64,000 nt of DNA from the NCBI GenBank assembly GCA_023701125.1, contig JAMPXO010000009.1, forward strand, positions 5,264 through 69,263, given 5' to 3'. Positions 33,418 to 57,331 of the stretch are shown one piece after another. The notes below the pieces were generated by a model that was not told the DNA's origin, made no database searches, and saw only the letters and a list, made by a program, of their open reading frames with translations. The position numbers and the translations under genes are program-made. Each line of letters opens with the position of its first letter. The first letter of the stretch is position 1. Source of the stretch: Vicinamibacteria bacterium (GTDB lineage: Bacteria > Acidobacteriota > Vicinamibacteria > Fen-336).

Positions 33418-33671
33418 GCGCGCCCGTCGTCGATGGCCGCCCGGACCTCGCGGTCACTGAGGCCGGCCTTGCTCCGCCGCCGGATCTGCTGCTGCAAGCC
33501 ACGCAGGCCAGCGACGGCGCGACCCACCGCCTCCAGCCGTTGGCCTCCCTCCGGGATCACGCGAGCGACGGGCTTGTCGTGGCGGGTGATGACGATCTCC
33601 TCGCCGCGGGCCACCCGGCCCAGCAGCGCGCCGAAGTGGGTCTTGGCCTCCAGGGCCGTCACTCTGGCCAC
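33414..33671 (-). CDS. vapB: Phd/YefM-type antitoxin VapB
   Basis: 85 aa. GTG start with GGGAGGGAA RBS. ATGA overlap with vapC. TGATCA-N5-TGATCA inverted boxes in its promoter. Confidence 0.8.
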   Translation of the reverse strand: MARVTALEAKTHFGALLGRVARGEEIVITRHDKPVARVIPEGGQRLEAVGRAVAGLRGLQQQIRRRSKAGLSDREVRAAIDDGRA

Positions 33672-33747
33672 AAATTCCCTCCCGTTCGATATTGATCAGT
33701 CGATGATCATTCTAGCCGGTCGCGAGGTCCGGTAAGCTCGCGGCTCC

Positions 33748-41415: not shown

Positions 41416-42947
41416 GAGGCCCTCGACTGGTCGAGCGCCGGGGGCGGCGCGGGCAGCGGCGTCGCCGGCGCAAGGGTCGGCGCCACCGCCCGGATCGGCA
41501 GCGCCATCCGCGCCCGGGTGCCGTGGCCGAGCGCACTCTCGAGCGTCAGCCGGCCGCCGTGGTCTTCGACGATCTTGTGGGTCAGCGCCAGGCCCAGCCC
41601 CAGCCCCGCCTCCTTGGTCGAGAAGTAGGGCTCGAAGGCCTGCGCCACCTGCTCCTCGCTCATGCCCGCGCCGGTGTCGGCGACCATGATCACCGCCAGC
41701 TCGCCCTCGCGCGCCAGCGAGACGCCGAGCTGGCCGCCCGAGCCCATCGCGTCGAGCGCGTTGATCGTCAGGTTCAGCAGGCAGGTCTTGAGCAGCTCGG
41801 GGTCGACGCGCACGTCGGGCAGCCCGGCCTCGACGTCGAGCGACATGACGACGCCCTGGGCGCGGGCCTTGGGCTCGACCAGCCCCGCCACGTCGCGGAC
41901 CAGGCTGTCGAGCGCGCACTCGCGGACGTGGAGCTGCATCGGCTTGCCGAAGCGCAGGAACTCGGCGACCAGGCGGTTGATGCGGCTGATCTCGCCCTTC
42001 ACGCTCTGCAGCACGCGCTGGAACTCCTCGCGCCGGCTCTCGTCGTCGGGGCCGAGCCGGCTGCGCACGTGGTCGATCGACAGGTTGATGAAGTTGAGCG
42101 GGTTGCGCACCTCGTGGGCGACGGCCGAAGCCAGCCGGCCGAGCGCCGTCGAGCGCTCGGCGAAGTGCAGCCGCTCCTCGAGCGCCCTGTTCTCGCGCAG
42201 GCGCACGACCATCTCGTTGAAGGCGCGGCCCAGCGACGCCAGCTCGTCGGTGCCCCGCACCGCGACCTGGACCGAGAGGTCGCCGCCCGCGACCCGGCCG
42301 GCGGCTTCCGACAGCTCGGACAGGGGCCGGGTGAACGAGACGGACAGGTAGAGCGCCAGCAGGATGCCGAGCGCGAACACCGCGAGGGTGGCGGCCAGGC
42401 GCGAGAACAGGCCGCGCTGCGACAGCATCTCGAAGTCGTCGAGGTAGCGGGTGACCAGCAGCGAGCCGATGCGCTGGTCGCCGACGACGATCGGGATCGC
42501 CAGCGTCGACGTGCGCTGCGAGCCGGGCGGCCCCGACTCCTCGCCGAGCACGCCGCGCACGACGTACCGGGTCGGGCCCTTGCGTCGCACCAGCCGCTTG
42601 CCGACGATCTTGGGGTTGGTCGAGGCCTGCACGACCTCCTCGGAGGCGTCGGCCAGGGTGACGTCCTTCACGCCGAGCTGGCGCAGCTTGTCGGCGTAGG
42701 CCTCGAGCGCCTCGGTGGGGCTGCGAGCGCCGGCCGCCGGCTGCTCCTGGGCGATCTCCAGCGTGGTCGACAGCTCGTCCGTGTAGTCGCGGATCTGGTT
42801 GAGCAGCTCGCGCTCGGAGTACAGGTGGATGTTGAACAGCGACACCACCGACAGCACCAGCAGCGACACCAGCATCAGCAGCAGCCGGGTGCGCAGCGAG
42901 AGGTGGCGCAGCCCGGCGCCGGCTGCGGCCAGCGCGCGCTGAATCAC
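41412..42947 (-). CDS. sensor histidine kinase (TM, HAMP, HisKA, HATPase)
   Basis: HEVRNPL H-box, DTGAGM G-box, HAMP (RPLSELSEAAGRVAGGDLS). GTG start overlaps the clpA stop. Confidence 0.8.
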
Positions 42948-45295: not shown

Positions 45296-45607
45296 CTACT
45301 CCTCCTCCAGGGTCGCGCGCAGCGGGTAGCCGGCCTCGCGCGCCTCGTCGTGGACGCGGTCGACCTTGGTCTCCGCGATCTCGTGAGTATAGGTGCCGCA
45401 GACACCGACGCCCTGCGTGTGGACGAACATCATGACGCGGTGGGCCTCGGCCGGCGACTTGTCGAAGATGTTCTCCAGCACGTGGATCACGAACTCCATC
45501 GTCGTGTAGTCGTCGTTGTGCAGGAGCACCCGGAAGAGCGGCGGCTTCGCCGTCTTCGTGCGGGTCTTCTCCTGGACGTTCCCCTGCCGGTCCGGGCTGC
45601 GTGCCAT
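45296..45607 (-). CDS. clpS: ClpS adaptor protein
   Basis: FRVLLHNDDYTTMEFVIHVL... Confidence 0.85.
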   Translation of the reverse strand: MARSPDRQGNVQEKTRTKTAKPPLFRVLLHNDDYTTMEFVIHVLENIFDKSPAEAHRVMMFVHTQGVGVCGTYTHEIAETKVDRVHDEAREAGYPLRATLEEE

Positions 45608-45649
45608 TCGATTCGATTGTAGTCCCCGCCCCGCGCGGCGAAATCGGGC

Positions 45650-45678
45650 TTGACAGATATTTTAGTTATAACTAAATT
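45650..45678 (+). promoter_or_regulatory. sigma70-like promoter in an AT-rich island (TTGACA -35 with -10 candidates TATAAC / TAAATT)
   Basis: CTTGACAGATATTTTAGTTATAACTAAATTG in an otherwise 72% GC context. The track's TTG start at 45650 is the -35 hexamer itself. Confidence 0.5.
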
Positions 45679-45685
45679 GCTGCCC

Positions 45686-46054
45686 GTGGGCCTGGAAACG
45701 GCAGCGCTGGCGGCGATCGCCAGCCCGCGACGGCGCGAGATCCTGCGCCTCGTGTGGCGCGAGGAACGGGCGGCGGGCGAGATCCATCGCGCGATGGGAG
45801 ACGTCACGTTCGGTGCGGTGTCGCAGCAGTTGCGAGCGCTCTGCGAATCGGGACTGCTCGAGGCGCGGGCCGACGGGCGGCAGCGCTTCTACAAGGCACG
45901 ACGGGAGGCCATGGGCCCGGTCGGCGAGCTGCTGGAACGGATGTGGGACGACGCGCTGTGGCAACTGAAACAGCGCGCCGAGCTGGCGGAGCGGCGCCGG
46001 GGGCCGAGGGCCGCGCGCCCGCGCGGCAGCCGGCGCAAGAAAGGAACGGCATGA
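45686..46054 (+). CDS. ArsR/SmtB-family transcriptional regulator
   Basis: ETAALAAIASPRRREILRLV HTH start. GTG 45686 (or TTG 45677) is in frame and lies directly downstream of the promoter, so possibly leaderless. Confidence 0.7.
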   Translation: MGLETAALAAIASPRRREILRLVWREERAAGEIHRAMGDVTFGAVSQQLRALCESGLLEARADGRQRFYKARREAMGPVGELLERMWDDALWQLKQRAELAERRRGPRAARPRGSRRKKGTA

Positions 46055-46827
46055 GCGGACGTGAGCACTCCCTCGAACGCGAGCTGGTGATCGAGGCCCG
46101 GCCGGAGACCGTGTTCTCCTTCTTCACCGACAGCGCCCGCTGGGCGTCCTGGTGGGGCGCCGGCTCGACCATCGAACCGTCCGTCGGCGGCGCGATGCTG
46201 ATCCGCCATCCCAACGGGCTCGAGGTCGTGGGCGAGGTGGTGGCATTCGAGCCGCCGCGTGCGATCGCGTTCACCTACGGCTACGCCTCGGGCGCGCCGA
46301 TCGCGCCGGGCGGCTCACTCGTGCGCATCGAGCTCGCGCCCGAGCCGAGCGGCACCCGCCTGCGCCTCCACCACGAGTTCGACGCGGCCGCGCCGCGCGA
46401 CCTGCACGTCCAGGGCTGGCGCTTCCAGCTCTCGCTGTTCGCGAACCTCGTCGCGGACCGGGTGGCGTCCACGGCGGCGGAGACCGTCGACGCCTGGTTC
46501 GCGGCCTGGGCCGAGCCCGAGGCCGCGGCTCGCCAGGCGGCTTTCGTTCGCCTCGCCACCGCCGACGTCCGCTTCCGCGACCGCTTCAGCCGCCTGGACG
46601 GCCTCGCCGAGGTGCTGCCCCACGTCGAGGCCGCGCAGCGCTTCATGCCCGGGATGCGCCTCGCCCGCCGCGGCGAGCTGCGCCACTGCCAGGGCACCGT
46701 GCTCGCCGACTGGACCGCGACCGGCCCCGATGGCGCGGAGCGCGGCCGCGGCACCAACGTCTTCACGCTCGACGCCGACGGCCGGATCGCGACGGCGACG
46801 GGCCTGTGGGAGGGCCCCGACCACTGA
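46051..46827 (+). CDS. SRPBCC (Aha1/polyketide-cyclase-like) domain protein with C-terminal SnoaL/NTF2-like domain
   Basis: ATGA overlap with arsR. ETVFSFFTDSARWASWWG SRPBCC start. Classic ArsR plus Aha1-domain pair. Confidence 0.7.
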   Translation: MSGREHSLERELVIEARPETVFSFFTDSARWASWWGAGSTIEPSVGGAMLIRHPNGLEVVGEVVAFEPPRAIAFTYGYASGAPIAPGGSLVRIELAPEPSGTRLRLHHEFDAAAPRDLHVQGWRFQLSLFANLVADRVASTAAETVDAWFAAWAEPEAAARQAAFVRLATADVRFRDRFSRLDGLAEVLPHVEAAQRFMPGMRLARRGELRHCQGTVLADWTATGPDGAERGRGTNVFTLDADGRIATATGLWEGPDH

Positions 46828-46924
46828 GCAGGCGGGGTGCTAGCATCCGACATCCAACGCAAGATTCTGCCCCGGGGCCGCTGTTTTCCGTCCTGGGGCC
46901 GAGGGGCTCGAGGGGAGGTGCTGG

Positions 46925-47503
46925 ATGCGCGCGCCCAAGCCACGCCCGGCGACACGACGGGCCGCGGGCCTGCTCTCACCCCGCGAGGGCTTCCTTCGCG
47001 GTGCGGCGCCCGACGCCCAGCAGGTGCGCAGCGATTGGCTGCCGCACCAGGCCGCGATTGAGGGCGTCTCGGTACGCGAGACCCGCAACGTCTCCAAGGG
47101 CAGGGGTTACCTGACGGAGATGTGGCGGTCCGAGTGGCAGCTCGGCGGCAGCGTCGAGCAGGTGTTCCAGGCCCTGCTGGGGCCCCACGAGATCTCTGCC
47201 TGGCACGTCCATCAAACGACCTGCGACCGGCTGTTCGTCAACCACGGGTCGGTCCGGGTGGTGCTCTACGACGCGCGGCGCGGCGGCTCCAGCTTCGGGG
47301 TCGTGAACACGTTCCGTTTCGGCGCCCATCGCCCCGCGCTGTTGATCGTGCCTGCCGGGGTCTGGCACGGGCTGCAGAACCTGCTGGACACGCCGAGCAG
47401 CGTGATCAACATCGTCGACCACGCCTACTCGTACGAGGCGCCGGATCACTGGCGGCTGCCGGCGGACTCGCGGCGCATCCCGTATCGTTTCCCGGCCCCT
47501 TGA
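46925..47503 (+). CDS. RmlC-like cupin (dTDP-sugar epimerase-like)
   Basis: Cupin with GVWHG-type motif (LIVPAGVWHGLQNL). Confidence 0.55.
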   Translation: MRAPKPRPATRRAAGLLSPREGFLRGAAPDAQQVRSDWLPHQAAIEGVSVRETRNVSKGRGYLTEMWRSEWQLGGSVEQVFQALLGPHEISAWHVHQTTCDRLFVNHGSVRVVLYDARRGGSSFGVVNTFRFGAHRPALLIVPAGVWHGLQNLLDTPSSVINIVDHAYSYEAPDHWRLPADSRRIPYRFPAP

Positions 47504-48375
47504 GCGCGACGAGGCCTGCGGCTGATCGCCGGGTCGACGTGCTGCTGGCCACCTACTGCCGGCCACACACGATCCGATACGCGATCGAGGCCGTGCTGCA
47601 GCAGACCCACGCCGACTTCACCCTGCACGTGGTCGGCGACGGTTGCGACGACGAGACGGAGCGGATCGTGCGTTCGTTCGCCGATCCGCGCCTTCGCTTC
47701 TACCGCTTCCCGAAGGCGATGGGCTTCGGCTACGTCCACCGCAACACGGTGCTGCGCCAGTGCGACGCGCCGTTCGTCGCCTACATGACGGACGACGACC
47801 TCTGGTTCCCGGACCACCTGCAGCGCGGCGTCGAAACGCTCGTCGAACGCGAGCTGGGCCTGGTCGCCTTCCGCTCGATCCAGGTCCGCTACCCGAACCT
47901 GCTCGACCCGTACTTCTTCGCCTTCGACTGGCGGCTGGGGCCATGGTCGCGCTGGCTCCGCAACTGGTTCATGGGCGCCGTCGGCTGCGTCCACCGGCGC
48001 GAGGTCTTCACCGCGGTCGGTTACTGGGACGAATCGCTGTTCCGCTTCGGCGACCGCGACTTCTACCACCGCGTGCGGGTCTCGCCGGTGCCCTCGAGCT
48101 ACGAGGACCGGGTGACCGTGCTGCGCTTCTACGCCCAACACTGGGACCCGTGCTACGCGCTGGTCGCGGAGCCGCCGCAGAAGGCCTGGGTGGGGCGCCT
48201 GCGCGAGCCCGGCTTCCGGGCCGAGGTCGAGGCCGCGCTGGCGGGACCGCGCGACCTGCTGGCCCGCTGGCGACAGGCCGACGACTTCGTGGCCTTCGCG
48301 GTGCGCTCGGGGCCGAGGTTCTTGCGGTTCCTGTTCCACAAGGCGCGGGCATGGGCGACCGGGTCCAGGCGCTGA
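47500..48375 (+). CDS. family-2 glycosyltransferase (polyprenyl-phosphate sugar transferase-like)
   Basis: VDVLLATYCRPHT..., VVGDGCDDET, DDD motif region. In-frame TTG 47500 overlaps the cupin stop (TTGA). Start uncertain. Confidence 0.65.
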   Translation: MSATRPAADRRVDVLLATYCRPHTIRYAIEAVLQQTHADFTLHVVGDGCDDETERIVRSFADPRLRFYRFPKAMGFGYVHRNTVLRQCDAPFVAYMTDDDLWFPDHLQRGVETLVERELGLVAFRSIQVRYPNLLDPYFFAFDWRLGPWSRWLRNWFMGAVGCVHRREVFTAVGYWDESLFRFGDRDFYHRVRVSPVPSSYEDRVTVLRFYAQHWDPCYALVAEPPQKAWVGRLREPGFRAEVEAALAGPRDLLARWRQADDFVAFAVRSGPRFLRFLFHKARAWATGSRR

Positions 48376-49631
48376 GCCGGCGCCAGGCGTGGCTCGTGCT
48401 CGGCGTCGCGCTGGCCGCCCGGCTGACGACAGCCGGCTTCGCCTGGGCGCGCGATCCGGGCGCGCTGATCGCGAGCGACTCCGAAGGCTACGTCGCGCTG
48501 GCCCACGGGCTGCTCGACCAGGGGCGCTTCCAGGCGCCCGGGGAGACCCTCGGCCACACCCGGCGTACCCCCGGCCTGCCGCTGCTGATCGCGGCCGTCT
48601 ACGCGCTGTGCGGTGAGCGCCCCGAGGCGGCGGTGCTCGTCGGCGTGCTGCTGAGCGCGGCGACCGCCTGGCTCACGGCGGCGACCGCGGCCGCGCTGGC
48701 TGGCCCGGTGGCCGGCCTGGCCGCAGGGCTGCTGCTGGCGCTGGACACGGCCTCGATCGTCGGTTGTCACCAGTTGCTGACCGAGCCGGCCTTCACGTTC
48801 CTGCTCGCCGCCGCCACGCTGTGCGCCGTGCGCGGACCGCAGCCCGGCCTGGGCAGCGCCGGGGGCTCGGGCCTGTTGCTGGCCGCCGCCGTGCTGACGC
48901 GCCCGGTGGGGCTGGTGCTGATCCTGCCGTTCGCCGCCTGGGTCGCGGCGCTCGCCGCGCCGGGCCGGCGGGCCCGCACGCTCGGCGCGTTCGTCATCCC
49001 GTTCGTGGTGCTGGTCGGCGGCTGGCAGGTGCGCAACGGACTGGTGGCCGGGGCCTACACTCCCTCGCACGGGCCGGCGAAGTTCTTGCTGCTGAGCCGC
49101 GGCTCGGACATCGTGTCGCAGCGCGACGGCCTCCCCTTCCGGGCGGCCCGGACGCGTCTCGAGACCGAGGTCGAGACCGCTCCTTTGCCCTCCGGCCGCC
49201 GGCGCGAGTCGCTCTACCTCGACCGCGCCCTGGAGCTGTTCACGGCCCACCCAGGGCTGCTGCTGTGGACCCAGGTGCGCTGGTTGCCCGAGCTGATGCT
49301 CGGCACCGGCGCGGCGGGACTCACCGCGCGGCTGGGACTCGCCGAGCCCGGCGGGCAGACGGTATCGTCCATGACGTTGTCGGCCGCTGCTGCCATGCAC
49401 CTGCTGTTGCTCTACGTCGGCACGGGGCTGGCCCTGCGCGACCGGCTGTGGAGTTCGGGCCGCACGCAGCGGACCGTTGCGGGCCTGGCGGCGCTCATCC
49501 TCGCGCTGGTGCTTGCGTCCACCGGGCCCCAGGGCTACTCGCGACTCCGCGTCCCGTTCGCACCGCTGCTCGCGGTCCTGGCCGGCGTGGGACTCTCCCC
49601 GCTCGTGCAGCGTCCGCCGGAGCGACAATGA
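48351..49631 (+). CDS. GT39/PMT_2 (ArnT-like) membrane glycosyltransferase-family protein
   Basis: Polytopic, with conserved loop ASDSEGYVALAHGL. Begins 25 bp before the GT2 stop. Confidence 0.65.
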   Translation: MGDRVQALSRRQAWLVLGVALAARLTTAGFAWARDPGALIASDSEGYVALAHGLLDQGRFQAPGETLGHTRRTPGLPLLIAAVYALCGERPEAAVLVGVLLSAATAWLTAATAAALAGPVAGLAAGLLLALDTASIVGCHQLLTEPAFTFLLAAATLCAVRGPQPGLGSAGGSGLLLAAAVLTRPVGLVLILPFAAWVAALAAPGRRARTLGAFVIPFVVLVGGWQVRNGLVAGAYTPSHGPAKFLLLSRGSDIVSQRDGLPFRAARTRLETEVETAPLPSGRRRESLYLDRALELFTAHPGLLLWTQVRWLPELMLGTGAAGLTARLGLAEPGGQTVSSMTLSAAAAMHLLLLYVGTGLALRDRLWSSGRTQRTVAGLAALILALVLASTGPQGYSRLRVPFAPLLAVLAGVGLSPLVQRPPERQ

Positions 49632-49634
49632 GGC

Positions 49635-50648
49635 GTGGCGCGCCGCCCCGAGCAGATGGATCTCTTCGGCCCCGACCCCGCCCCGGTTCCGCCACGGCCT
49701 GCCGGCCCGACACCCCGACCGGCCGAGTTGCCCGACCTCGCCGGCCTGCGCGCGCTCGCCGCCCGAGTGCCCCCCGGGCTGCACTTCGGCACCTGCTCCT
49801 GGGCCTTCCCGGGCTGGGCCGGCCTCGTCTATGCCGAGCAGCGCAAGGCCAGCGACCTCGCCCACGACGGCCTCGCGGAGTACGCGCGCCACCCGCTGCT
49901 GCGCACGGTGGAGATCGATCGTTCGTACTACGCACCGGTACCCGAGGCCGACTTCGAGCGCTACGCCTTCCAGCTGCCGCCCGGCTTCCGCTGCGCGCTC
50001 AAGGCGCCGGCCGCGGTGACCTCTCTTCAACTCCCCCACAAGCGCGAGGTCCGCCCCAACCCCGATTTCCTGAGCGCCGCCCGGCTCGAGCGGGAGTTGC
50101 TGGAGCCCGCCCATCGCGCCTTCGCGTCTCACCTCGGGCCCGTGATCCTCGAGTTCCCCGCCCCGCGATTTCCGCTCGCCCTGCCGCCGCGGGTCTTCGC
50201 CGAGCAACTCGACGAGTTCCTGTGCCGGCTTCCGACCGGCTTCGACTACGCCATCGAGTTGCGGGACGCGAGTTGGCTGTCGCCGCTCTACCGCCAGGTA
50301 CTGGCCCGCCACCGGGTCGCCCACGTCTACAGCTACTGGAGCCACATGCCGCGCCCCGTTGCGCAGGAGCGCCTGGTGCCGATGGCGGGCGCACGGTTCC
50401 TGCTGTTGCGGCTGTTGTTGCCACCGGGTGCGCGCTACGACGACAAGAAGGACGCCTTCGCCCCTTTCGACCGACTCGAGGCACCCGACCCGGCGATGCG
50501 GCGCGAGGTGGTCGCGTTGTGTCGGGCGGCGCTCGCGCGCGGGATGCCGGCCTTCGTGCTGGTCAACAACAAGGCCGAGGGCTCGTCACCGCTGACGGTG
50601 CGCGCGCTGGCGGAGGCGCTGGCGGTGGACCTCGACAGCGGGGACTGA
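49635..50648 (+). CDS. DUF72 family protein
   Basis: GTCSWAFPGW.GLVY and characteristic YSYW.HMP motifs. Confidence 0.75.
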   Translation: MARRPEQMDLFGPDPAPVPPRPAGPTPRPAELPDLAGLRALAARVPPGLHFGTCSWAFPGWAGLVYAEQRKASDLAHDGLAEYARHPLLRTVEIDRSYYAPVPEADFERYAFQLPPGFRCALKAPAAVTSLQLPHKREVRPNPDFLSAARLERELLEPAHRAFASHLGPVILEFPAPRFPLALPPRVFAEQLDEFLCRLPTGFDYAIELRDASWLSPLYRQVLARHRVAHVYSYWSHMPRPVAQERLVPMAGARFLLLRLLLPPGARYDDKKDAFAPFDRLEAPDPAMRREVVALCRAALARGMPAFVLVNNKAEGSSPLTVRALAEALAVDLDSGD

Positions 50649-50650
50649 CG

Positions 50651-52564
50651 ATGTGCGGGATCTGCGGCTACGCGGGCTTCGAGGCAGCCCCGGGCCTGCT
50701 CGATCGCATGGCGGACTCGATCCGCCACCGGGGCCCGGACAGCCAGGGTCGCTTCCGCGGCGTCGCGTCGGGCCTGGCCGTCGAGCGCCTCGCCATGGTG
50801 GACCTCGCCCGTGGCGAGCAGCCGATCCGGAACGAGGATGGGTCCGTGGTCCTCGTGCTCAATGGCGAGATCTACAACCACGCCGAGCTGAGGGCCGGAC
50901 TGGAGGCGCGCGGGCACCGCCTGCGCTCGGGGTCGGACGCGGAGGTGGTGGTCCACCTCTACGAAGAGCAGGGCATCGCCTGCCTGAACAGGCTGCGCGG
51001 CATGTTCGCCCTCGGCTTGCACGACCTGCGCCGCGGCGAGACCTTTCTGGCCCGCGACCGCCTGGGCCTCAAGCCTCTCTACTACTGGTCGCAGGGCGGT
51101 CGGCTGCTCTTCGCTTCCGAGACCAAGGCCCTGCTCGAGTCCGGCCTGGTGTCCCGCGAGGTGCGCCTCGAGGCGGTCGACGCCTACCTGCGGCTGCGCT
51201 TCGTGCCTGGCCCGGCCACCATGATCCAGGGCGTGAACAGGCTGCCGGCGGGACACTGGCTGTGTCACCGTGGTCACGAGGTCCGCATCGAGCGCTACTG
51301 GCAGCTCCCGATCGACGACGGCGGTCGCGAGCAGACCGACCGCGAGTGGGTCGAGCAGTTCGAGCACCTCTTCGACGAGACCGTGCGGCTCCACATGCGC
51401 GGCGACGTCGCGGTCGGCGCGTACCTGAGCGGCGGCCTCGACTCGAGTCTCGTGGTGGCCGCGGCGGCACGCGTGGACGATCGCCTCCACACGTTCTCGA
51501 TCGGCTTCGCCGGCGAGGCCGACGAGGGCTCCGCGGCGCGCGCGATGGCCGCCCATGCAGGCACGGTGCACCACCGGTCCGCCTGCGACGCCGATGCGCT
51601 TCGCTTCTTGCCCCAGGTCGTCTGGCATGCGGACGAGCCGCCAGCGGCCGTGGCGTTGCCTCTCTTCCTGCTCGCCCGTGACGCCCGGCCGCACGTGAAA
51701 GCGGTGCTCAGCGGTGAAGGGGCCGACGAGGTGCTGGCCGGCTACGCGGCCCATCGTGCCCTCGAGGCGCTCCGCCGGACCCGCTCCCTGGCGGCACCCG
51801 CCGTGCTGCGCGGAGCGGCCTGGTTGGCTTCCCTTGCGAGTCGCAGCGGCATCGACCTGCGCCTCGACCATCCCGCGCCGCTCGGCCGCAGCGGCTGGCA
51901 GCGGATCGAGCACGTGCTGAAGGCCGCCCGCGGATCGCTCGCCGCGACCTGGGAGGCGGCCATCTCGCTGTTCGCCGACGTCGAACTCGAGAGGCTGTAT
52001 CGGCGGGGCGGACCGCTCGTTCACCTCGCCCGCCGCCTGCACCCGGTGGCGGGGCCGGACGCTGCGCCGGGCAGCCTGGACGCCGTGCTCGCGCAGCAGT
52101 TCGACACCTGGCTGCCCGACAACGTGCTCTCCCGCCAGGACAAGATGTCGATGGCCCACTCGGTCGAAGTCCGCCTGCCCTACCTCGATCACGTCCTCGT
52201 CGAGTTCCTCTTCACCGTGCCGCCGCACCTGAAGCTGAGGCTGCTCCCGCCCGGCGGCAAGATCCTGTCCCGGCGCCTGGCTCGACACCGGCTTCCGGCG
52301 GCGTTGGCCAGCCGCCGAAAGCAATCGCTGACGGTGCCCCTGGAGGCGCACCTGGACAGCGCCACCTTCGGCGAACTGCTGGCATCCACGCTGAACGAAG
52401 CCCGGGTTCGGCGCCGGGGCTACTTCGAACCGGCCGCCGTTCGCGACCTCGTCCAGCGCGCGCGGCAGACGCGCGAGTTCGTGCTCGCCAAGCAGGTGCT
52501 GGCCCTCGTCCTGTTGGAGCTCTGGCACGAGCAGTTCGTCGACGGCGTCCGCCGATCGGCCTGA
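50651..52564 (+). CDS. asnB: asparagine synthase (glutamine-hydrolysing)
   Basis: MCGICG Ntn-glutaminase start, SGGLDSS PP-loop. Confidence 0.85.
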   Translation: MCGICGYAGFEAAPGLLDRMADSIRHRGPDSQGRFRGVASGLAVERLAMVDLARGEQPIRNEDGSVVLVLNGEIYNHAELRAGLEARGHRLRSGSDAEVVVHLYEEQGIACLNRLRGMFALGLHDLRRGETFLARDRLGLKPLYYWSQGGRLLFASETKALLESGLVSREVRLEAVDAYLRLRFVPGPATMIQGVNRLPAGHWLCHRGHEVRIERYWQLPIDDGGREQTDREWVEQFEHLFDETVRLHMRGDVAVGAYLSGGLDSSLVVAAAARVDDRLHTFSIGFAGEADEGSAARAMAAHAGTVHHRSACDADALRFLPQVVWHADEPPAAVALPLFLLARDARPHVKAVLSGEGADEVLAGYAAHRALEALRRTRSLAAPAVLRGAAWLASLASRSGIDLRLDHPAPLGRSGWQRIEHVLKAARGSLAATWEAAISLFADVELERLYRRGGPLVHLARRLHPVAGPDAAPGSLDAVLAQQFDTWLPDNVLSRQDKMSMAHSVEVRLPYLDHVLVEFLFTVPPHLKLRLLPPGGKILSRRLARHRLPAALASRRKQSLTVPLEAHLDSATFGELLASTLNEARVRRRGYFEPAAVRDLVQRARQTREFVLAKQVLALVLLELWHEQFVDGVRRSA

Positions 52565-52594
52565 GCTGGTCCCGGGCCCTAGAATGCACACGTC

Positions 52595-52837
52595 ATGAGC
52601 ACGATCTTCGTGATGGTGAAGTGCGAGCTCGGTCGCGCCTACGAGGTGGCCGCCGCGATCGCGGACCGGGTCGAGGAGGCGTCCGAGGTGTGGTCCACCT
52701 CGGGCCAGTACGACCTGCTCGTGAAGTGCGTGCTGGCGCCGGGGCGCGACGCCGGCCACTTCGTGACGGAGTCGCTGCAGCGCCTGCCCGGCGTGCGCGA
52801 CACCTTCACCCTGATCGCGTTCCAGGCCTTTCGCTAG
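52595..52837 (+). CDS. stand-alone Lrp/AsnC-type RAM (ligand-binding) domain protein
   Basis: 80 aa. VMVKCELGRAYEVAAAIA..VWSTSGQYDLLVKCVLA is a RAM-domain pattern without an HTH. Confidence 0.6.
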   Translation: MSTIFVMVKCELGRAYEVAAAIADRVEEASEVWSTSGQYDLLVKCVLAPGRDAGHFVTESLQRLPGVRDTFTLIAFQAFR

Positions 52838-53496
52838 GAGATCGAGCCCCCAGGCTTGCGGCCACCCGGCTTGCGCGGGCGTGCGTCCGACCACGGCGTC
52901 AGCGGCGCGCGCGCCCAGGCGGGCGCGGGCTGTGGATCGGGGGCCAGGTCGCGGAAGTCGGCGATCTCCCGGATGCGCCCTGCGCGGGTGCGGAACAGCC
53001 GGCCCTCGCGGGTGAACACGATGTCGCCCGCGTGGTCGCGGCCGGCCCACTCCTCGGAGCGGAACGTCGCGGGCCGCCAGCCGGTCGCCACTTCGAGGCC
53101 GATGGCCGGGTGGTCGGGATGGGTGCGGAGATCGCCGCCGAAGACGACGACCTGGCGGCGACCGGCGAAGTAGCCGCCGCCGCCCCAGGTGCTGCCGTGC
53201 GGCCACAGCGCCAGCGCGTGCAGCCAGGGCGCGCGGCTGACCGCCGTCCACGACCCGGTGTACGAGGTCCCGAACTTCCGCCCCTGCAGCGCGAAGTACA
53301 GGAACAGCTTGCCGTCCGGCGAGAGGTCGCAGCGCTCCTCGTAGAGGCGGCCCCGGAACCACGCACCCGGCTCCAGGGCGTCGGTGTCGGTGTGCCAGCG
53401 GATCAAGTGGTACCACTGGGTGGGCCCGCGGCGCAGGATCAGCCCGATCGGCGTGTCGCGGGCGAGCAGCACGTGGAGTCGCGGCGGGGAGGCCAT
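52834..53496 (-). CDS. hypothetical protein
   Basis: 220 aa. Coherent composition (WYHLIRWHTDTDALEPGAWFRGRLYEERCDLSPDGKLFLYF...). Divergent from padR. Confidence 0.45.
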   Translation of the reverse strand: MASPPRLHVLLARDTPIGLILRRGPTQWYHLIRWHTDTDALEPGAWFRGRLYEERCDLSPDGKLFLYFALQGRKFGTSYTGSWTAVSRAPWLHALALWPHGSTWGGGGYFAGRRQVVVFGGDLRTHPDHPAIGLEVATGWRPATFRSEEWAGRDHAGDIVFTREGRLFRTRAGRIREIADFRDLAPDPQPAPAWARAPLTPWSDARPRKPGGRKPGGSIS

Positions 53497-53519
53497 GCGC
53501 CCGCCATGGTAATCGTCCC

Positions 53520-53547
53520 TTGACATTGTGTGCGTCACGCATATATT
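53520..53547 (+). promoter_or_regulatory. strong sigma70-like promoter: TTGACA, 16-bp spacer, TATATT
   Basis: CCTTGACATTGTGTGCGTCACGCATATATTCCACGCGTG. The GTG at 53554 lies 7 nt after the -10. The track's GTG start 53530 sits inside the spacer. Confidence 0.6.
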
Positions 53548-53553
53548 CCACGC

Positions 53554-53913
53554 GTGACTATCGAACGCGACGCCGCGGCCCTGCTGCCGCTGCCTGAGGT
53601 GACCTTCCACGTGCTCGTCGCGCTGGCGGATGGCGAGCGGCACGGCTACGCCATCCTGCAGGATGTCGAGGCGCGCACGGACGGCGCCGTGCGCCTCTCC
53701 GCAGGCACCCTGTACCGGGCGATCCACCGCATGCTCGAGCAGGGCCTCGTCGTGGAGAGCGACGACCGCCCCGCCCGCAGCGAGGACGACGAGCGTCGGC
53801 GCTACTACCGCATCACGGTGCTGGGGGCTGCGGCCGTGCGCGCCGAGTCCGCGCGCCTGTCGCGGCTGGTCGAGCTGGCCCGGGCCAAGGGGCTGGCGCC
53901 GCGCCGGAGCTGA
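53554..53913 (+). CDS. PadR-family transcriptional regulator
   Basis: HVLVALADGERHGYAILQDVE winged-helix. Likely leaderless GTG start. Confidence 0.75.
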   Translation: MTIERDAAALLPLPEVTFHVLVALADGERHGYAILQDVEARTDGAVRLSAGTLYRAIHRMLEQGLVVESDDRPARSEDDERRRYYRITVLGAAAVRAESARLSRLVELARAKGLAPRRS

Positions 53914-53915
53914 CG

Positions 53916-56504
53916 ATGCGACTGCACCGCCTGCTGCTGCTGCTGTTCCCCGCCGCGTTCCGCGCCGAGTACGGGGCCGAGCTGCTGCGCGACCTCGCGG
54001 CGCGCCACCGCGAGCGCGAGGGGCTGGCCCGCGCGGCATTGCTGGTGCACGACGTGCCCGAGCTGCTGCTGGACGCCATCGCCGCGCAGTGGGACGTGCT
54101 GACCCAGGACCTGCGCCAGGCGCGGCGCTCGCTGCGCCGACAGCCGGGCTTCTGCGCGGCGGTCGTGACGGTGGCGGCGCTCGGCATCGGCGCCAACACC
54201 GCCGTGTTCTCGGCCCTCGACCGCACGCTGCTGCGGCCGCTGCCCTATCCCGAGCCCGATCGGCTCGTGCGCCTGTTCGAGCGCGAGCCCGGTTACGGCC
54301 GGCTGGAGACCTCGCCTGCCAACTACCGCGACTGGAAGGCGCAGGTGGGCTCGTTCACCTCGATCGCCGCCCACCACACGCAGTGGGTGAACCTCGTCGG
54401 CCGCGGCGAGCCGCAGCGGCTGGCGGCGACCGCGACGGAGGCCGCGCTGTTCCCGATGCTCGGCGTGGAACCACTGCTGGGGCGGCTGATCGACGCCGCG
54501 GACGACGTGGTCGGGGCGCCGGGCGTGCTGCTGCTGAGCCACGCGCTGTGGGTCCGCGAGTTCGGCGCCGATCCGGCCGCGATCGGGGCGCAGGTGAGGC
54601 TGGACGACGAGCCGTTCACGATCGTCGGCGTGCTGCCGCCCGCGTTCAGCTACCCGACCCGCGACACCCCGCTCTGGGTGCCGCTGCGGCTGGGCACAGG
54701 CGGCTCGTTCGACGACCGCGAGAACCACTACCTGTGGACCCTGGCGCGGCTCCGGCCCGGCGTTTCGCACGAGCAGGCGCAGGCCGAGATGGACGTGATC
54801 GCCGCCCGCCTCGCCGCCGCGTACCCGGAGCCGATGGCCCGCAAGGGCGTGAGCGTCCGCGCGCTGGCCGACGAGGTGCCGGTGCAGGCCCGCCAGCTCC
54901 TGCTCGGGCTGGCCGCGGCCGCGGGCCTCGTGCTGCTGGTCGCCTGCGCCAACCTCGCCAACCTGCTCCTGGCGCGGACGCTGTCGCGGGTGCGCGAGCT
55001 GTCGGTGCGCGCCGCGCTGGGCGCCGGCCGCGAGCGCCTGCTGCGCCAGATCCTGGCCGAGTCGCTGCTGCTGGCAGCCTGCGGCGGCCTGGGCGGCCTC
55101 GCCCTCGCCGCCGCCCTGCTGCCGGTCGCCGCGAGCCTGGTGCCGACGCTGCTGCCGGTACCGGCGCCGGTTGCGCTCGACCTGCGCGTGCTGGCGCTGG
55201 GCGCAGGGCTGACGCTCGTCACCGGCCTCGGCTTCGGCGTGCTGCCGGCGCTGCGCCTGGGCGCGCGGCCGGACCTGCGCACGCTGCGCGAGACGTCGCA
55301 GACGAGCCGCGGCAGCAGCCGCGCTGGCGTGCGCCAGGCACTGGTCGTCGCGGAGGTGGGCGCCGCGGTGGCACTGATGTTCGCGGGTGGCCTGCTGCAC
55401 GCGGCGCTGCAGCGGGTGGAGGCCGTCGATCCCGGGTTCGAGGCGCGCGGCACCCTCGCGCTGCAGACTCCGCCGCCGTTTCCGCGATATGCCGAGGTTG
55501 GCCGCCGCGAAGCGCTCTACGCGAGCGTGCTCGACGACGTGCGGGCGCGGCCCGGGGTGACGGCGGCGGGCTACGGCAGCTTCCTGCCGATGACGATGCG
55601 CGGCGGCGTGTGGCCGGTGCGCGAGGCTGGCGGCGCGGCGCAGGACGGCGAGCGCCCGACGGCGCTGCTGCGCCTCGTCACGCCGGGCTTCCTGGAGGCG
55701 CTGGGGGTGCCGCTGCAGCGCGGACGCACGATCGCCCGCGAAGACGTGCGCGAGGCGCAGGCCGTCGCCGTGGTCAGCGAGTCGTTCGCGCTCCGGCACT
55801 GGCCCGGCCAGGACCCGCTCGGCCGCTCGTTCGCGATCGCGTTCTCCGAGCCCGTCGTCGTGGGCGTCGTCGGCGACGTCCGGGTGCGCGGCCTGGAGCG
55901 CGAGAGCGAACCCCAGGTCTACCTGTCGAGCGCTCAGGTCGCGGACGGCTCGCTCGTCTTCTACGTGCCGAAGGAGCTGCTGATCCGTTTCGAGGGCAAC
56001 CCCGCGGCGCTGGCCACTGCCGCCCGCGCGGCCGTGCATCGCGCCGATCCGGACCTGCCGATCGCCGAGGTGCGCGGGCTCGACGACATCGTCGCCGCCG
56101 ACTCCGGACAGCGGCGGCTGCAGGCGCAGATGATCGCGGCGTTCGGCGCGCTCGCGGTGCTGCTGGCCGCGGTCGGCCTGCACGGCCTGCTGGCGTTCAC
56201 GGTGACCCAGCGACTGCCGGAGTTCGGCCTGCGCCGCGCGCTGGGAGCCAGTTCGTGCCAGCTCCTGCAACTCGTGCTCGGCGACGGCTTGCGGCTGGCG
56301 ATGCTCGGTTGCGTCGTCGGTGCCCTGCTCGGCTGGGGCGCCTCGCGCGTGCTCGAGTCGCTGCTGTTCGGCGTGCCGCCGAGCGAGCCGACGGTGGCGC
56401 TGGTCGCGTTCGCCGTCGGCATCGGCATGACGCTCGCTGGCAGCCTCGGCCCCGCCCTGCGAGCGCTGCGAGCCGACCCGCTGCTGGTGCTGCGCGCCGA
56501 CTGA
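53916..56504 (+). CDS. ADOP-type (MacB/FtsX-like duplicated) ABC permease
   Basis: 862 aa with two FtsX-like 4-TM modules and large periplasmic domains. PadR plus ADOP pairing is typical of Acidobacteria. Confidence 0.8.
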   Translation: MRLHRLLLLLFPAAFRAEYGAELLRDLAARHREREGLARAALLVHDVPELLLDAIAAQWDVLTQDLRQARRSLRRQPGFCAAVVTVAALGIGANTAVFSALDRTLLRPLPYPEPDRLVRLFEREPGYGRLETSPANYRDWKAQVGSFTSIAAHHTQWVNLVGRGEPQRLAATATEAALFPMLGVEPLLGRLIDAADDVVGAPGVLLLSHALWVREFGADPAAIGAQVRLDDEPFTIVGVLPPAFSYPTRDTPLWVPLRLGTGGSFDDRENHYLWTLARLRPGVSHEQAQAEMDVIAARLAAAYPEPMARKGVSVRALADEVPVQARQLLLGLAAAAGLVLLVACANLANLLLARTLSRVRELSVRAALGAGRERLLRQILAESLLLAACGGLGGLALAAALLPVAASLVPTLLPVPAPVALDLRVLALGAGLTLVTGLGFGVLPALRLGARPDLRTLRETSQTSRGSSRAGVRQALVVAEVGAAVALMFAGGLLHAALQRVEAVDPGFEARGTLALQTPPPFPRYAEVGRREALYASVLDDVRARPGVTAAGYGSFLPMTMRGGVWPVREAGGAAQDGERPTALLRLVTPGFLEALGVPLQRGRTIAREDVREAQAVAVVSESFALRHWPGQDPLGRSFAIAFSEPVVVGVVGDVRVRGLERESEPQVYLSSAQVADGSLVFYVPKELLIRFEGNPAALATAARAAVHRADPDLPIAEVRGLDDIVAADSGQRRLQAQMIAAFGALAVLLAAVGLHGLLAFTVTQRLPEFGLRRALGASSCQLLQLVLGDGLRLAMLGCVVGALLGWGASRVLESLLFGVPPSEPTVALVAFAVGIGMTLAGSLGPALRALRADPLLVLRAD

Positions 56505-57192: not shown

Positions 57193-57331
57193 GACGCCTC
57201 GCTCCCCCGTGTTTCGGATGGAAGAAAGATAGGCGAACGAAAAGCGAAGGTCAAGGTGTTTCTGTAGGCCGAATTCAAATCGAGTGCACCGCCGTGGCGC
57301 GGGGCGTAGGCTCCCGCCGGAGTTCCAGCGA

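What the first reader, a model, noticed from the sequence alone, without database searches (positions are those of the whole stretch)
45650..53556. AT-rich sigma70 consensus promoter islands with apparently leaderless GTG starts for ArsR and PadR regulators
Two of the few AT-rich spots in the window are textbook promoters. One is TTGACA-N16/17-TAAATT at 45650-45678, directly abutting the in-frame GTG (45686) or TTG (45677) of arsR. The other is TTGACA-N16-TATATT at 53520-53547, with the padR GTG at 53554, 7 nt after the -10.

In both cases the ORF-track start codon lies inside the promoter hexamers, which is an annotation trap. The PadR promoter is shared divergently with the hypothetical gene at 53496. 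Leaderless GTG-initiated regulators would be notable.
Basis: partly seen in the sequence, partly recalled or inferred. Interest (0 to 1): 0.5.

Follow-up and report, generated by a model that had tools for sequence, protein, structure and literature searches.

The report
Leaderless promoters of two repressor operons
Two small repressor genes (ArsR-type and PadR-type) in this soil acidobacterial genome sit directly against strong promoters, so their messages probably begin at the GTG start codon with no leader; the same layout is kept in about 130 related loci, but this kind of gene organisation is already known.

Summary
TTGACA-N17-TAAATT (45650-45678) ends 7 nt before the arsR GTG (45686). 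TTGACA-N16-TATATT (53520-53547) ends 6 nt before the padR GTG (53554). These are the only two sigma70 matches of at least 10/12 in the 64 kb window, against 0.035 expected.

Comparative data support the leaderless reading:
- 73 of 81 ArsR loci and 60 of 79 PadR loci, from Acidobacteriota, Gemmatimonadota and soil metagenomes, keep a strong promoter.
- In those loci an in-frame ATG or GTG follows the -10 box by 4-10 nt (all but one within 5-9; mode 6-7).
- There is almost no Shine-Dalgarno motif in that gap, TTG starts are nearly absent, and the base before the start codon is usually a pyrimidine.
- Syntenic orthologues switch between GTG and ATG at the same codon.

Each promoter carries a palindrome over the spacer and -10 box, which I take to be the repressor's own operator. 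The second gene of each operon (AHSA1-SnoaL fusion; ADOP permease) has its own Shine-Dalgarno motif.

No transcription start map exists, so a leader of 0-3 nt cannot be excluded. Leaderless genes were already predicted for about 13% of acidobacterial genes and are enriched among regulators, and GTG-initiated leaderless translation is proven in mycobacteria. This is a well-supported new member of a known kind, of modest interest. Public gene calls already use these GTG starts.

The parts
45296..45607 (-). clpS, divergent neighbour of arsR, followed by clpA at 42944-45295
   Evidence: Pfam ClpS, E=1.7e-33. The same divergent arrangement occurs in orthologous locus L161.
45616..45621 (-). -10-like TACAAT, 8 nt upstream of the clpS ATG; a candidate second (divergent) leaderless or near-leaderless promoter
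   Evidence: The sequence is identical in L161. No good -35 box is present.
45650..45655 (+). arsR -35 hexamer TTGACA
   Evidence: Conserved in orthologous loci.
45661..45676 (.). Perfect 16-bp palindrome TTTAGTTATAACTAAA, the presumed ArsR operator. Its right arm contains the first four bases of the -10 box.
   Evidence: single copy in the window, 0.01 expected. The T[TA]AGTTnnn[ATC]CTAA core is present in 79 of 81 orthologous loci.
45673..45678 (+). arsR -10 hexamer TAAATT
   Evidence: The family consensus is TAAAnT, with CTAAA in 79 of 79 and the final T in 78 of 79 loci.
45686..46054 (+). arsR coding sequence (122 aa) from GTG 45686, the presumed +1 of the mRNA
   Evidence: Pfam HTH_20/HTH_5 from residue 12. 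The N-terminus matches 28 homologues. Identical to NCBI protein P0121.
46040..46046 (+). Shine-Dalgarno-like AAAGGAA, 4 nt before the ATG of the second gene. The ATG overlaps the arsR stop codon (ATGA).
   Evidence: Sequence.
46051..46827 (+). AHSA1/SRPBCC-SnoaL fusion protein (258 aa), second gene of the arsR operon
   Evidence: Pfam AHSA1, Polyketide_cyc2 and SnoaL_2. Found immediately downstream of arsR in 80 of 80 loci.
52834..53496 (-). Divergent hypothetical gene (220 aa), with no family hit
   Evidence: GC by codon position is 0.70/0.60/0.95, which looks like coding sequence. No Pfam or NCBIfam hit. A syntenic 215-aa gene is present in L165.
53506..53511 (-). -10-like TACCAT, 9 nt upstream of the ATG of the divergent gene
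   Evidence: Read. The aligned position in L165 is TAGGAT, 5 nt before a GTG (read).
53520..53525 (+). padR -35 hexamer TTGACA
   Evidence: Conserved in the family.
53527..53545 (.). Imperfect palindrome TGTGTGCGTCACGCATATA (7 of 9 pairs; perfect core TGCGTcACGCA at 53531-53541), the presumed PadR operator. It overlaps the spacer and the -10 box.
   Evidence: It occupies the place of the family consensus aTATAtcCac.gTGgcTATA. Arm positions s7/s15 covary (p about 0.0004).
53534..53558 (.). Second inverted repeat, GTCACGC / GCGTGAC, that brackets the -10 box and includes the GTG start
53542..53547 (+). padR -10 hexamer TATATT
   Evidence: The family consensus is TATAnT.
53554..53913 (+). padR coding sequence (119 aa) from GTG 53554, the presumed +1 of the mRNA
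   Evidence: Pfam PadR, 64.8 bits, from residue 20. Homologues begin 9-12 residues before the LLPLP motif. Identical to P0001. A GTGACT-type start recurs in many homologues.
53906..53909 (+). Shine-Dalgarno GGAG, 6 nt before the ATG of the permease gene
   Evidence: Sequence.
53916..56504 (+). ADOP-family duplicated permease (862 aa), second gene of the padR operon
   Evidence: NCBIfam TIGR03434, 802 bits against a cutoff of 622. Pfam MacB_PCD and FtsX. An ADOP homologue was found by tblastn in 68 of 80 PadR loci.

Best explanation
Both sites are working promoters for the housekeeping sigma factor (sigma70/sigmaA type) of a Vicinamibacteria (Acidobacteriota) genome.

Proposed mechanism:
- Each promoter drives a two-gene operon whose first gene is a small winged-helix repressor.
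- Transcription starts at, or within 0-3 nt of, the G of the GTG start codon. The mRNA therefore has no 5' untranslated region and no Shine-Dalgarno motif.
- A ribosome loads directly on the 5'-terminal GUG (leaderless initiation).
- The second gene is translated from its own Shine-Dalgarno motif. In the arsR operon this is the AHSA1-SnoaL protein, whose ATG overlaps the arsR stop codon. In the padR operon it is the ADOP permease, whose ATG lies 2 nt after the padR stop codon.
- A palindrome lies across the spacer and the -10 box of each promoter. The encoded repressor most likely binds it, blocks RNA polymerase, and so controls its own operon until an unknown ligand releases it.

What is shown and what is inferred:
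- Shown: the sequence elements, their excess over chance, and their conservation together with the fixed -10-to-start distance in about 130 related loci.
- Inferred: the transcription start point, the leaderless mode of translation, and repressor binding to the palindromes.
For: Promoter strength:
- These are the only two sites of at least 10/12 in 64 kb, against 0.035 expected.

ArsR family:
- No Shine-Dalgarno motif lies in the 6-7 nt gaps at either window gene.
- 73 of 81 loci have a promoter of at least 9/12 plus an in-frame start 5-9 nt after the -10 box. Counts by distance are 1, 31, 25, 11 and 5.
- Start codons are ATG 57, GTG 15, TTG 1. A Shine-Dalgarno-like motif occurs in the gap in 2 of 73.

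PadR family:
- 60 of 79 loci show the same layout, with a modal distance of 6 nt.
- Start codons are ATG 43, GTG 17, TTG 0. The -1 base is a pyrimidine in 54 of 60.

Start codon position:
- Syntenic orthologues keep the same start codon position as GTG (L161, L165) or ATG (L162, L166), with small indels in the gap.
- N-termini of homologues and domain boundaries fit the GTG starts.
- Two ArsR loci whose palindrome lies far upstream (L021, L047) carry AAGG or AGGA just before the ATG.

Operators:
- The arsR palindrome is perfect, unique in the window, and conserved in 79 of 81 loci. The sequence upstream of the -35 box is not conserved.
- The padR palindrome matches a family-wide consensus.

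Wider context:
- TANNNT is enriched 6-11 nt before candidate starts across the window: 13 hits in 6 positions against about 0.6 per position elsewhere.
- The same enrichment appears in non-focal genes of related high-GC loci.
- Predicted 5' ends are unpaired in the centroid folds.
- Leaderless genes were predicted at 13.3% in Acidobacteria and are enriched in COG category K (PMC3160421).
- ATG or GTG at the 5' end is necessary and sufficient in mycobacteria, whereas TTG is not (PMC4633059).
Against: - No transcription start, ribosome profiling or N-terminal peptide data exist for this organism. I found no start-site map for any member of Acidobacteria.
- The organism is an uncultured metagenome-assembled genome.
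- In E. coli a leaderless GTG works at under 10% of ATG, as cited in PMC4633059, so efficiency here is unknown.
- About 10% of ArsR loci and about 24% of PadR loci did not pass my automatic criteria. On inspection several of these still show the motif, with a weaker -35 box or a different spacer.
- Symmetry of the PadR palindrome is imperfect in the window (7 of 9 pairs), and arm covariation is significant at only one of five position pairs.
- Repressor-operator binding is untested.
Confidence: 0.72

Rival explanations
1. Very short leader rather than strictly leaderless. RNA polymerase starts 1-5 nt upstream of the GTG, and translation initiates without a Shine-Dalgarno motif on a tiny untranslated region.
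For: The gap between the -10 box and the start codon ranges from 5 to 9 nt among orthologues. Other candidate genes in the window have gaps of 8-10 nt. With a fixed start 7 nt after the -10 box, some of these would carry 1-3 extra bases.
Against: For the two window genes the gaps are 6 and 7 nt, exactly the usual distance to +1. The start-codon G is the first purine in a suitable position. The -1 base is a pyrimidine in 54 of 60 PadR loci. Functionally such mRNAs are normally counted as leaderless.
Confidence: 0.17
2. Leadered mRNA from another promoter further upstream. The main transcript would begin upstream, for example as read-through or from an unrecognised promoter, and the start codon would be used internally without a Shine-Dalgarno motif. 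The TTGACA/TAnnnT boxes would be minor or inactive.
For: Start sites are unmeasured. Many promoters in high-GC genomes do not resemble the consensus, so an unseen one cannot be excluded.
Against: - Both genes are divergent from their upstream neighbours, with only 78 and 57 bp between start codons. There is little room for another promoter and no co-directional upstream gene.
- Conservation in orthologues begins at the -35 box and nothing further upstream is conserved.
- The fixed 5-9 nt distance would have no explanation.
Confidence: 0.06
3. The AT-rich motifs are only protein-binding sites (operators), and their resemblance to -35 and -10 boxes is incidental.
For: In the ArsR family the -10 box is part of the palindrome arm (AACTAAA). 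Its conservation could therefore be due to the operator alone.
Against: - The TTGACA box lies outside the palindrome yet is conserved at a 16-18 nt spacing in both unrelated regulator families.
- The final T of the -10 box lies outside the perfect palindrome and is present in 78 of 79 loci.
- Two unrelated families converge on the same geometry.
Confidence: 0.03
4. The true start codons are elsewhere: TTG 45677 or TTG 45650 for arsR, GTG 53530 for padR, or a downstream codon.
For: These are in-frame, and the ORF listing reports the longest forms.
Against: - The upstream candidates lie inside the promoter (the -35 box, the spacer or the -10 box).
- Homologue N-termini align to the GTG codons, and syntenic orthologues have ATG at exactly that codon.
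- Downstream starts would remove the conserved first helix (ASPRRREILRL) or the LLPLP motif.
- TTG is almost never used at this position in the families (1 of 133).
Confidence: 0.02

Closest known systems
Computationally predicted 'TA-led' leaderless genes of bacteria (Zheng et al. 2011, PMC3160421)
   Same: A TANNNT -10-like signal lies about 10 bp upstream of the start codon, with no Shine-Dalgarno motif. That study reports leaderless genes in 3 of 3 Acidobacteria genomes (mean 13.3%, range 9.7-19.4%) and enrichment in COG category K, transcription.
   Different: Here a full consensus -35 box is also present. The start codon is GTG. The architecture is shown to be conserved gene by gene across about 130 loci, and an operator is embedded in the promoter.
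Mycobacterial leaderless mRNAs (Shell et al. 2015, PMC4633059)
   Same: ATG or GTG at the 5' end acts as the sole initiation signal, and TTG is not used. The same ATG/GTG-only pattern is seen here (100 ATG, 32 GTG, 1 TTG).
   Different: The phylum is different (Acidobacteriota). There is no experimental proof here, and the efficiency of GTG is unknown.
Classical leaderless repressor genes: phage lambda cI transcribed from PRM, and tetR of Tn1721 (from my own knowledge, not checked with a tool)
   Same: A small autoregulated repressor is translated from an mRNA that begins at its start codon, and the operator overlaps the promoter.
   Different: Those use AUG and belong to unrelated repressor families. 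The cases here are chromosomal two-gene cassettes with GTG.
ArsR/SmtB autorepressors with inverted-repeat operators overlapping their promoter (for example SmtB, PDB 1r1t/1r22; SdpR-type autorepressors)
   Same: Winged-helix ArsR fold (Pfam HTH_5/HTH_20; PDB matches). A palindromic site sits over the promoter of its own operon.
   Different: There are no conserved metal-binding cysteines; the single Cys53 is not conserved. The score is below the NCBIfam metalloregulator cutoff (50.4 against 55). The partner gene is an AHSA1-SnoaL fusion of unknown function.
PadR subfamily-2 regulators paired with transporters (LmrR-LmrCD of Lactococcus; Rv3488, PDB 5zhc) and the acidobacterial PadR-ADOP pairs (TIGR03433/TIGR03434)
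   Same: A short PadR of about 110-120 aa sits next to, and upstream of, a membrane permease. The permease is a true ADOP member (802 bits). The closest solved structures are Rv3488 and LmrR-like proteins.
   Different: The regulator scores below the TIGR03433 cutoff (61.7 against 101.8). The operator consensus found here (TATAtcCac.gTGgcTATA) is not the ATGT-N8-ACAT motif that I recall for PadR; that recollection comes from memory and was not tested.

Membership tests
Bacterial leaderless gene/mRNA | The transcription start coincides with the first base of the start codon, or lies within a few nt of it | not testable with these tools
   No transcript 5'-end data are available. Indirect support comes from gaps of 6 and 7 nt after the -10 box, a conserved 5-9 nt gap in 132 related loci, and a pyrimidine at -1 in 54 of 60 PadR loci.
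Bacterial leaderless gene/mRNA | A -10-like TANNNT signal lies about 6-12 nt upstream of the start codon | tested here: met
   TAAATT ends 7 nt and TATATT ends 6 nt before the GTG.
Bacterial leaderless gene/mRNA | No Shine-Dalgarno motif upstream of the start codon | tested here: met
   The gaps GCTGCCC and CCACGC contain no GGAG, GAGG or AGGA. In the families the motif occurs in 2 of 73 and 8 of 60 gaps. The second genes of both operons do have Shine-Dalgarno motifs.
Bacterial leaderless gene/mRNA | The 5'-terminal codon is AUG or GUG | tested here: met
   GTG at both genes. Family usage is ATG 100, GTG 32, TTG 1.
Sigma70/sigmaA-type promoter | -35 TTGACA-like and -10 TATAAT-like hexamers separated by 16-18 nt | tested here: met
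   10/12 and 11/12 matches with spacers of 17 and 16 nt. Simulations expect 0.035 such sites per window.
Sigma70/sigmaA-type promoter | Directs transcription initiation in vivo | not testable with these tools
   Needs a reporter assay or start-site mapping.
ArsR/SmtB family (Pfam HTH_5 PF01022 / HTH_20 PF12840) | Winged helix-turn-helix domain scoring above the family threshold | tested here: met
   HTH_5 scores 26.8 bits (cutoff 22) and HTH_20 scores 27.1 bits (cutoff 27).
ArsR/SmtB metalloregulators (NCBIfam NF033788) | Score above the curated cutoff, and conserved metal-ligand residues | tested here: not met
   50.4 bits against a cutoff of 55. The only cysteine, C53, is not conserved among 28 homologues.
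PadR family (Pfam PF03551) | PadR winged-helix domain scoring above the gathering threshold | tested here: met
   64.8 bits against a cutoff of 27, covering residues 20-96.
Acidobacterial PadR paralogue family (TIGR03433) | Score above the curated cutoff | tested here: not met
   61.7 bits against a cutoff of 101.8. The protein is related to this family but falls outside the model.
ADOP duplicated permease (TIGR03434) | Full-length match above the curated cutoff | tested here: met
   802 bits against a cutoff of 622.3, covering profile positions 1-803.
Autoregulated repressor operon | A palindromic operator overlaps the promoter of the repressor's own gene | tested here: met
   The arsR site is a perfect 16-bp palindrome at 45661-45676, conserved in 79 of 81 loci. 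The padR site is an imperfect 19-bp palindrome that matches a family consensus.
Autoregulated repressor operon | The repressor binds the operator and represses transcription | not testable with these tools
   Needs a gel-shift or footprinting assay, or genetics.

The most novel reading that the evidence does not exclude
The two loci may be examples of compact control modules with no untranslated region, of about 36-45 bp. Each module packs the -35 box, the operator, the -10 box and the start codon together. In the ArsR case the -10 box is part of the palindrome arm.

The ArsR module has been kept almost base for base across two phyla (Acidobacteriota and Gemmatimonadota) while the cassette sits in different genomic neighbourhoods. 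The PadR module recurs in unassigned soil metagenome contigs, and its protein homologues carry Gemmatimonadaceae and Thermoanaerobaculia (Acidobacteriota) labels.

The near-exclusive use of ATG or GTG, never TTG, would mean that Acidobacteriota have efficient, mycobacteria-like leaderless translation that tolerates GUG. This has not been shown experimentally for the phylum.
Probability: 0.55. Interest if true: 0.4.

Novelty: new member of a known kind. Interest (0 to 1): 0.3.

Why it matters
For annotation, the result gives a firm, comparatively supported start codon for two regulator families. It also shows that longest-ORF calls run into the promoter.

For biology, it provides two ready-made and highly conserved promoter-operator sequences for a phylum with almost no characterised promoters or genetic tools:
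- ArsR type: cTTGACA-N4-5-TTTAGTTnnAACTAAAnT
- PadR type: TTGACAaTATAtcCac.gTGgcTATAnT

It adds indirect evidence that Acidobacteriota use GTG as well as ATG, but not TTG, for leaderless initiation. It does not reveal a new mechanism.

Tried and rejected
- Rfam scan of the whole window at gathering thresholds found 0 hits, so there is no known leader or riboswitch. The tRNA scan also found none.
- A search for extra copies of either operator in the window, which would have suggested a regulon, found only the promoter copies. Each ArsR locus holds one palindrome within about 2.5 kb on either side.
- Folding the first 60 nt of each predicted mRNA showed no unusual structure (z = 0.67 and -0.06). 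The 5' GUG is unpaired in both centroid folds.
- I tested covariation between the two arms of the PadR palindrome as evidence for binding by a dimer. Only one of five position pairs was significant (s7-s15, p about 0.0004), so this is weak support only.
- A crude histogram of TANNNT position across all loci, using every in-frame ATG or GTG of long ORFs, was swamped by internal codons and showed nothing. A version restricted to the 5' boundaries of ORFs in high-GC loci showed a modest peak at 5-8 nt.
- The minus strand of the arsR AT-rich island has a TAAAAT box but no usable -35 box; this is my reading. The better clpS candidate is TACAAT at 45616-45621.
- Literature searches for ArsR+SRPBCC operons, for PadR+ADOP, and for start-site maps in Acidobacteria found nothing relevant.

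Full report
**Source and setting.** The window has 72.6% GC. Its ArsR protein is identical to an NCBI protein from a Vicinamibacteria (Acidobacteriota) metagenome-assembled genome (P0121). The gene order around the finding is:
- a sigma54 two-component pair, then clpA and clpS (minus strand);
- arsR, an AHSA1-SnoaL fusion, a cupin, a GT2 glycosyltransferase, PMT_2, DUF72, asparagine synthase and a small AsnC-type ligand-binding-domain protein (plus strand);
- a hypothetical 220-aa gene (minus strand);
- padR and an ADOP permease (plus strand), then DinB (minus strand) and a Ser/Thr kinase (plus strand).

**Check of the observation.** The sequence is as described.
- arsR: TTGACA (45650-45655), a 17-nt spacer, TAAATT (45673-45678), 7 nt, then GTG at 45686.
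- padR: TTGACA (53520-53525), a 16-nt spacer, TATATT (53542-53547), 6 nt, then GTG at 53554.

The tool scan found 2 promoter-like sites in 44-56 kb against 0.1 expected. In my scan of the whole window these are the only two matches of at least 10/12. First-order Markov simulations gave a mean of 0.035, and none of 200 runs had two. At looser thresholds the count is at chance level.

The arsR site is the most AT-rich 40-nt stretch of the window, at 30% GC. The padR site is only moderately AT-rich. The longest-ORF start of arsR is the TTG of the -35 hexamer. The longest-ORF start of padR (GTG 53530) lies in the spacer. Public gene calls already use the two GTGs (P0121 of 122 aa; P0001 of 119 aa).

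**Are the GTGs the real starts?**
- Pfam places the HTH_20/HTH_5 domain from residue 12 of ArsR and the PadR domain from residue 20 of PadR.
- Twenty-eight ArsR homologues begin 5-7 residues before the invariant ASPRRREILRL helix, as the window protein does.
- PadR homologues begin 9-12 residues before the LLPLP motif.
- Solved PadR structures (Rv3488, LmrR-like) start their winged helix within about 3 residues of the same point.
- The syntenic ArsR orthologue L161 (91% identity, with clpS also divergent) has GTG at the same codon, 6 nt after TAAATT. L162 (76%) has ATG at that codon, 8 nt after TAAAGT.
- The syntenic PadR orthologue L165 has GTG 6 nt after TATATT. L166 has ATG 7 nt after TATAGT.

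**Comparative test of the leaderless layout.** I fetched 80 ArsR loci from species-representative genomes. They come from Bryobacteraceae, Terriglobia, Vicinamibacterales and Gemmatimonadaceae. I also fetched 80 PadR loci from soil and other metagenomes.

| Measure | ArsR family | PadR family |
|---|---|---|
| Loci with a promoter of at least 9/12 and an in-frame start 4-10 nt after the -10 box | 73 of 81 | 60 of 79 |
| Gap-length counts | 5:1, 6:31, 7:25, 8:11, 9:5 | 4:1, 5:6, 6:35, 7:12, 8:3, 9:3 |
| Start codons | ATG 57, GTG 15, TTG 1 | ATG 43, GTG 17, TTG 0 |
| Shine-Dalgarno-like motif in the gap | 2 of 73 | 8 of 60 |
| Pyrimidine at -1 | 49 of 73 | 54 of 60 |

A pyrimidine at -1 followed by a purine at +1 is the usual pattern at transcription start sites. 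By eye, several loci that failed the automatic filter still show the same layout with a weaker -35 box. Two ArsR loci whose palindrome lies far upstream (L021, L047) have AAGG or AGGA just before the ATG. This is what one expects if a leader needs a Shine-Dalgarno motif.

A narrow, conserved -10-to-start distance, ATG/GTG-only starts and the absence of Shine-Dalgarno motifs are the accepted sequence signature of leaderless genes (PMC3160421).

**Operators.** The arsR spacer and -10 box hold a perfect 16-bp palindrome, TTTAGTTATAACTAAA (45661-45676). It is unique in the window. The core T[TA]AGTTnnn[ATC]CTAA is present in 79 of 81 loci. The family consensus is cTTGACA-N4-5-tTTTAGTTt.AaCTAAA.Tat, and nothing upstream of the -35 box is conserved. 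The -10 box (TAAAnT) is the outer end of the right palindrome arm.

The PadR family consensus is cTaTAgcCaTTGACAaTATAtcCac.gTGgcTATA.T. The window copy is a diverged version, TGTGTGCGTCACGCATATA (53527-53545), with 7 of 9 symmetric pairs. It lacks the extra CTATAGCC box that most homologues carry just 5' of the -35 box. A second inverted repeat, GTCACGC/GCGTGAC, brackets the -10 box and includes the GTG. Arm covariation in the family is significant at one of five position pairs.

Binding by the adjacent repressors is an inference. It rests on the position of the palindromes and on what is generally known of ArsR and PadR autorepressors.

**Operon partners.** The AHSA1/SRPBCC-SnoaL fusion follows arsR in 80 of 80 loci. 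Its ATG overlaps the arsR stop codon and is preceded by AAAGGAA. clpS is a neighbour in only one of the 80 loci, plus L161, so the cassette is self-contained and sits in varied contexts.

The permease after padR is a full ADOP-family member (802 bits). An ADOP homologue was detected in 68 of 80 PadR loci, and GGAG lies 6 nt before its ATG. The genome therefore does use Shine-Dalgarno motifs; only the first gene of each operon lacks one.

The ArsR protein lacks conserved metal ligands and scores below the metalloregulator model. The PadR protein scores below the TIGR03433 cutoff. The ligands and functions of both are unknown.

**How unusual is this in the genome?** TANNNT boxes pile up 6-11 nt before plausible gene starts across the window. 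There are 13 hits in 6 positions, against about 0.6 per position further upstream. Besides arsR and padR, the candidates are:
- a SulP transporter (7738, +);
- adenosine deaminase (9618, +);
- a CT_C_D protein (19197, -);
- a RidA-like protein (25879, +);
- cstA (33748, +);
- a response regulator (37340, -, GTG);
- clpS (45607, -);
- the AsnC-type ligand-binding-domain protein (52595, +);
- the hypothetical gene at 53496 (-) (TACCAT, 9 nt before its ATG; read).

That is roughly 11 of about 60 genes. It is in line with the 9.7-19.4% predicted for three Acidobacteria genomes, with enrichment among transcription genes (PMC3160421). Non-focal genes in the related high-GC loci show a modest peak at 5-8 nt.

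What sets arsR and padR apart is the perfect -35 box, the embedded operator and the GTG. GTG-initiated leaderless translation is experimentally established in mycobacteria, where TTG and CTG fail (PMC4633059). The codon usage found here follows the same rule.

**Divergent neighbours.** The clpS and arsR start codons are 78 bp apart. clpS has its own TACAAT box 8 nt before its ATG, conserved in L161, and it is well clear of the ArsR palindrome.

The hypothetical gene and padR are 57 bp apart. Its TACCAT box (53506-53511, minus strand) would place its -35 region at about 53529-53534, inside the padR spacer and operator. PadR could therefore plausibly control both directions. This is inference only. 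The aligned box in L165 is TAGGAT.

**Limits.**
- No transcript or protein data exist for this uncultured organism, and I found no start-site map for any member of Acidobacteria.
- A leader of 0-3 nt cannot be told apart from a strictly leaderless mRNA.
- Repressor binding and the efficiency of GUG initiation are untested.

**Verdict.** The phenomenon belongs to a known class, so this is a new, nicely documented member rather than a new kind. I put the interest at about 0.3. The main practical value is the pair of phylum-wide promoter-operator consensus sequences and the firm start-codon assignment.

Noticed in passing
window 7738(+), 9618(+), 19197(-), 25879(+), 33748(+), 37340(-), 45607(-), 52595(+), 53496(-): Nine further genes have a TANNNT box 8-10 nt upstream of a plausible ATG or GTG start and no obvious -35 box. 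They are SulP, adenosine deaminase, a CT_C_D protein, a RidA-like protein, CstA, a response regulator, ClpS, an AsnC-type ligand-binding-domain protein and a hypothetical protein. Together with arsR and padR, about 18% of the genes in the window look leaderless or nearly so.
   Followed up: partly
window 33663-33720: This is the only other island at or below 40% GC. It is the upstream region of a Phd/YefM antitoxin gene on the minus strand (33414-33662). Reading that strand, it has a TAGAAT box, two TGATCA palindromes (TGATCAGTCGATGATCA) and a strong Shine-Dalgarno motif, GGGAGG, 6 nt before a GTG. It is a leadered contrast to arsR and padR in the same genome.
   Followed up: partly
L021:2426-2500 and L047:2426-2500: These are the two ArsR loci where the palindrome and -10 box lie far (about 50-70 nt) upstream of the ATG. 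Both carry a Shine-Dalgarno-like AAGG or AGGA 4-5 nt before the ATG, so they appear to be natural leadered variants of the cassette.
   Followed up: no
PadR loci L081-L160; the corresponding position in the window is 53511-53519: Most PadR homologues carry a third conserved box, cTaTAgcC, immediately 5' of the -35 hexamer. It is a direct repeat of the left operator half-site, about 15 bp away. The window copy lacks it and has AATCGTCCC instead.
   Followed up: no
window 46844-52564 compared with L161, L162 and L165: Gene order differs between relatives. In L161 and L162, DUF72 follows the AHSA1-SnoaL gene directly, and in L162 asparagine synthase lies upstream of arsR. In L165 the order is DUF72, AsnC-type ligand-binding-domain gene, hypothetical gene, then padR. 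The window has cupin, GT2 and PMT_2 genes (46.9-49.6 kb) and asnB inserted between these anchors. In some relatives the two regulator cassettes may therefore be only about 2 kb apart.
   Followed up: partly
window 44000-56000: No intrinsic-terminator-like hairpins were found, against 3.1 expected from shuffles. Rho-independent terminators of the classical type seem to be avoided or absent here.
   Followed up: no
window 57226-57254 (-): The third-best promoter-like site is TTGACC-N17-TATCTT (9/12), upstream of the DinB-family gene. It is followed by GGGGGAG within 30 nt, so it looks like a leadered, Shine-Dalgarno-using promoter. At this score it is within chance expectation.
   Followed up: no
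window 46051-46827 and L001-L080: The AHSA1/SRPBCC and SnoaL domains are fused in one 258-aa protein. This protein has no NCBIfam model, yet it is strictly linked to this ArsR type in 80 of 80 loci across two phyla. It is a conserved pair of unknown function.
   Followed up: partly
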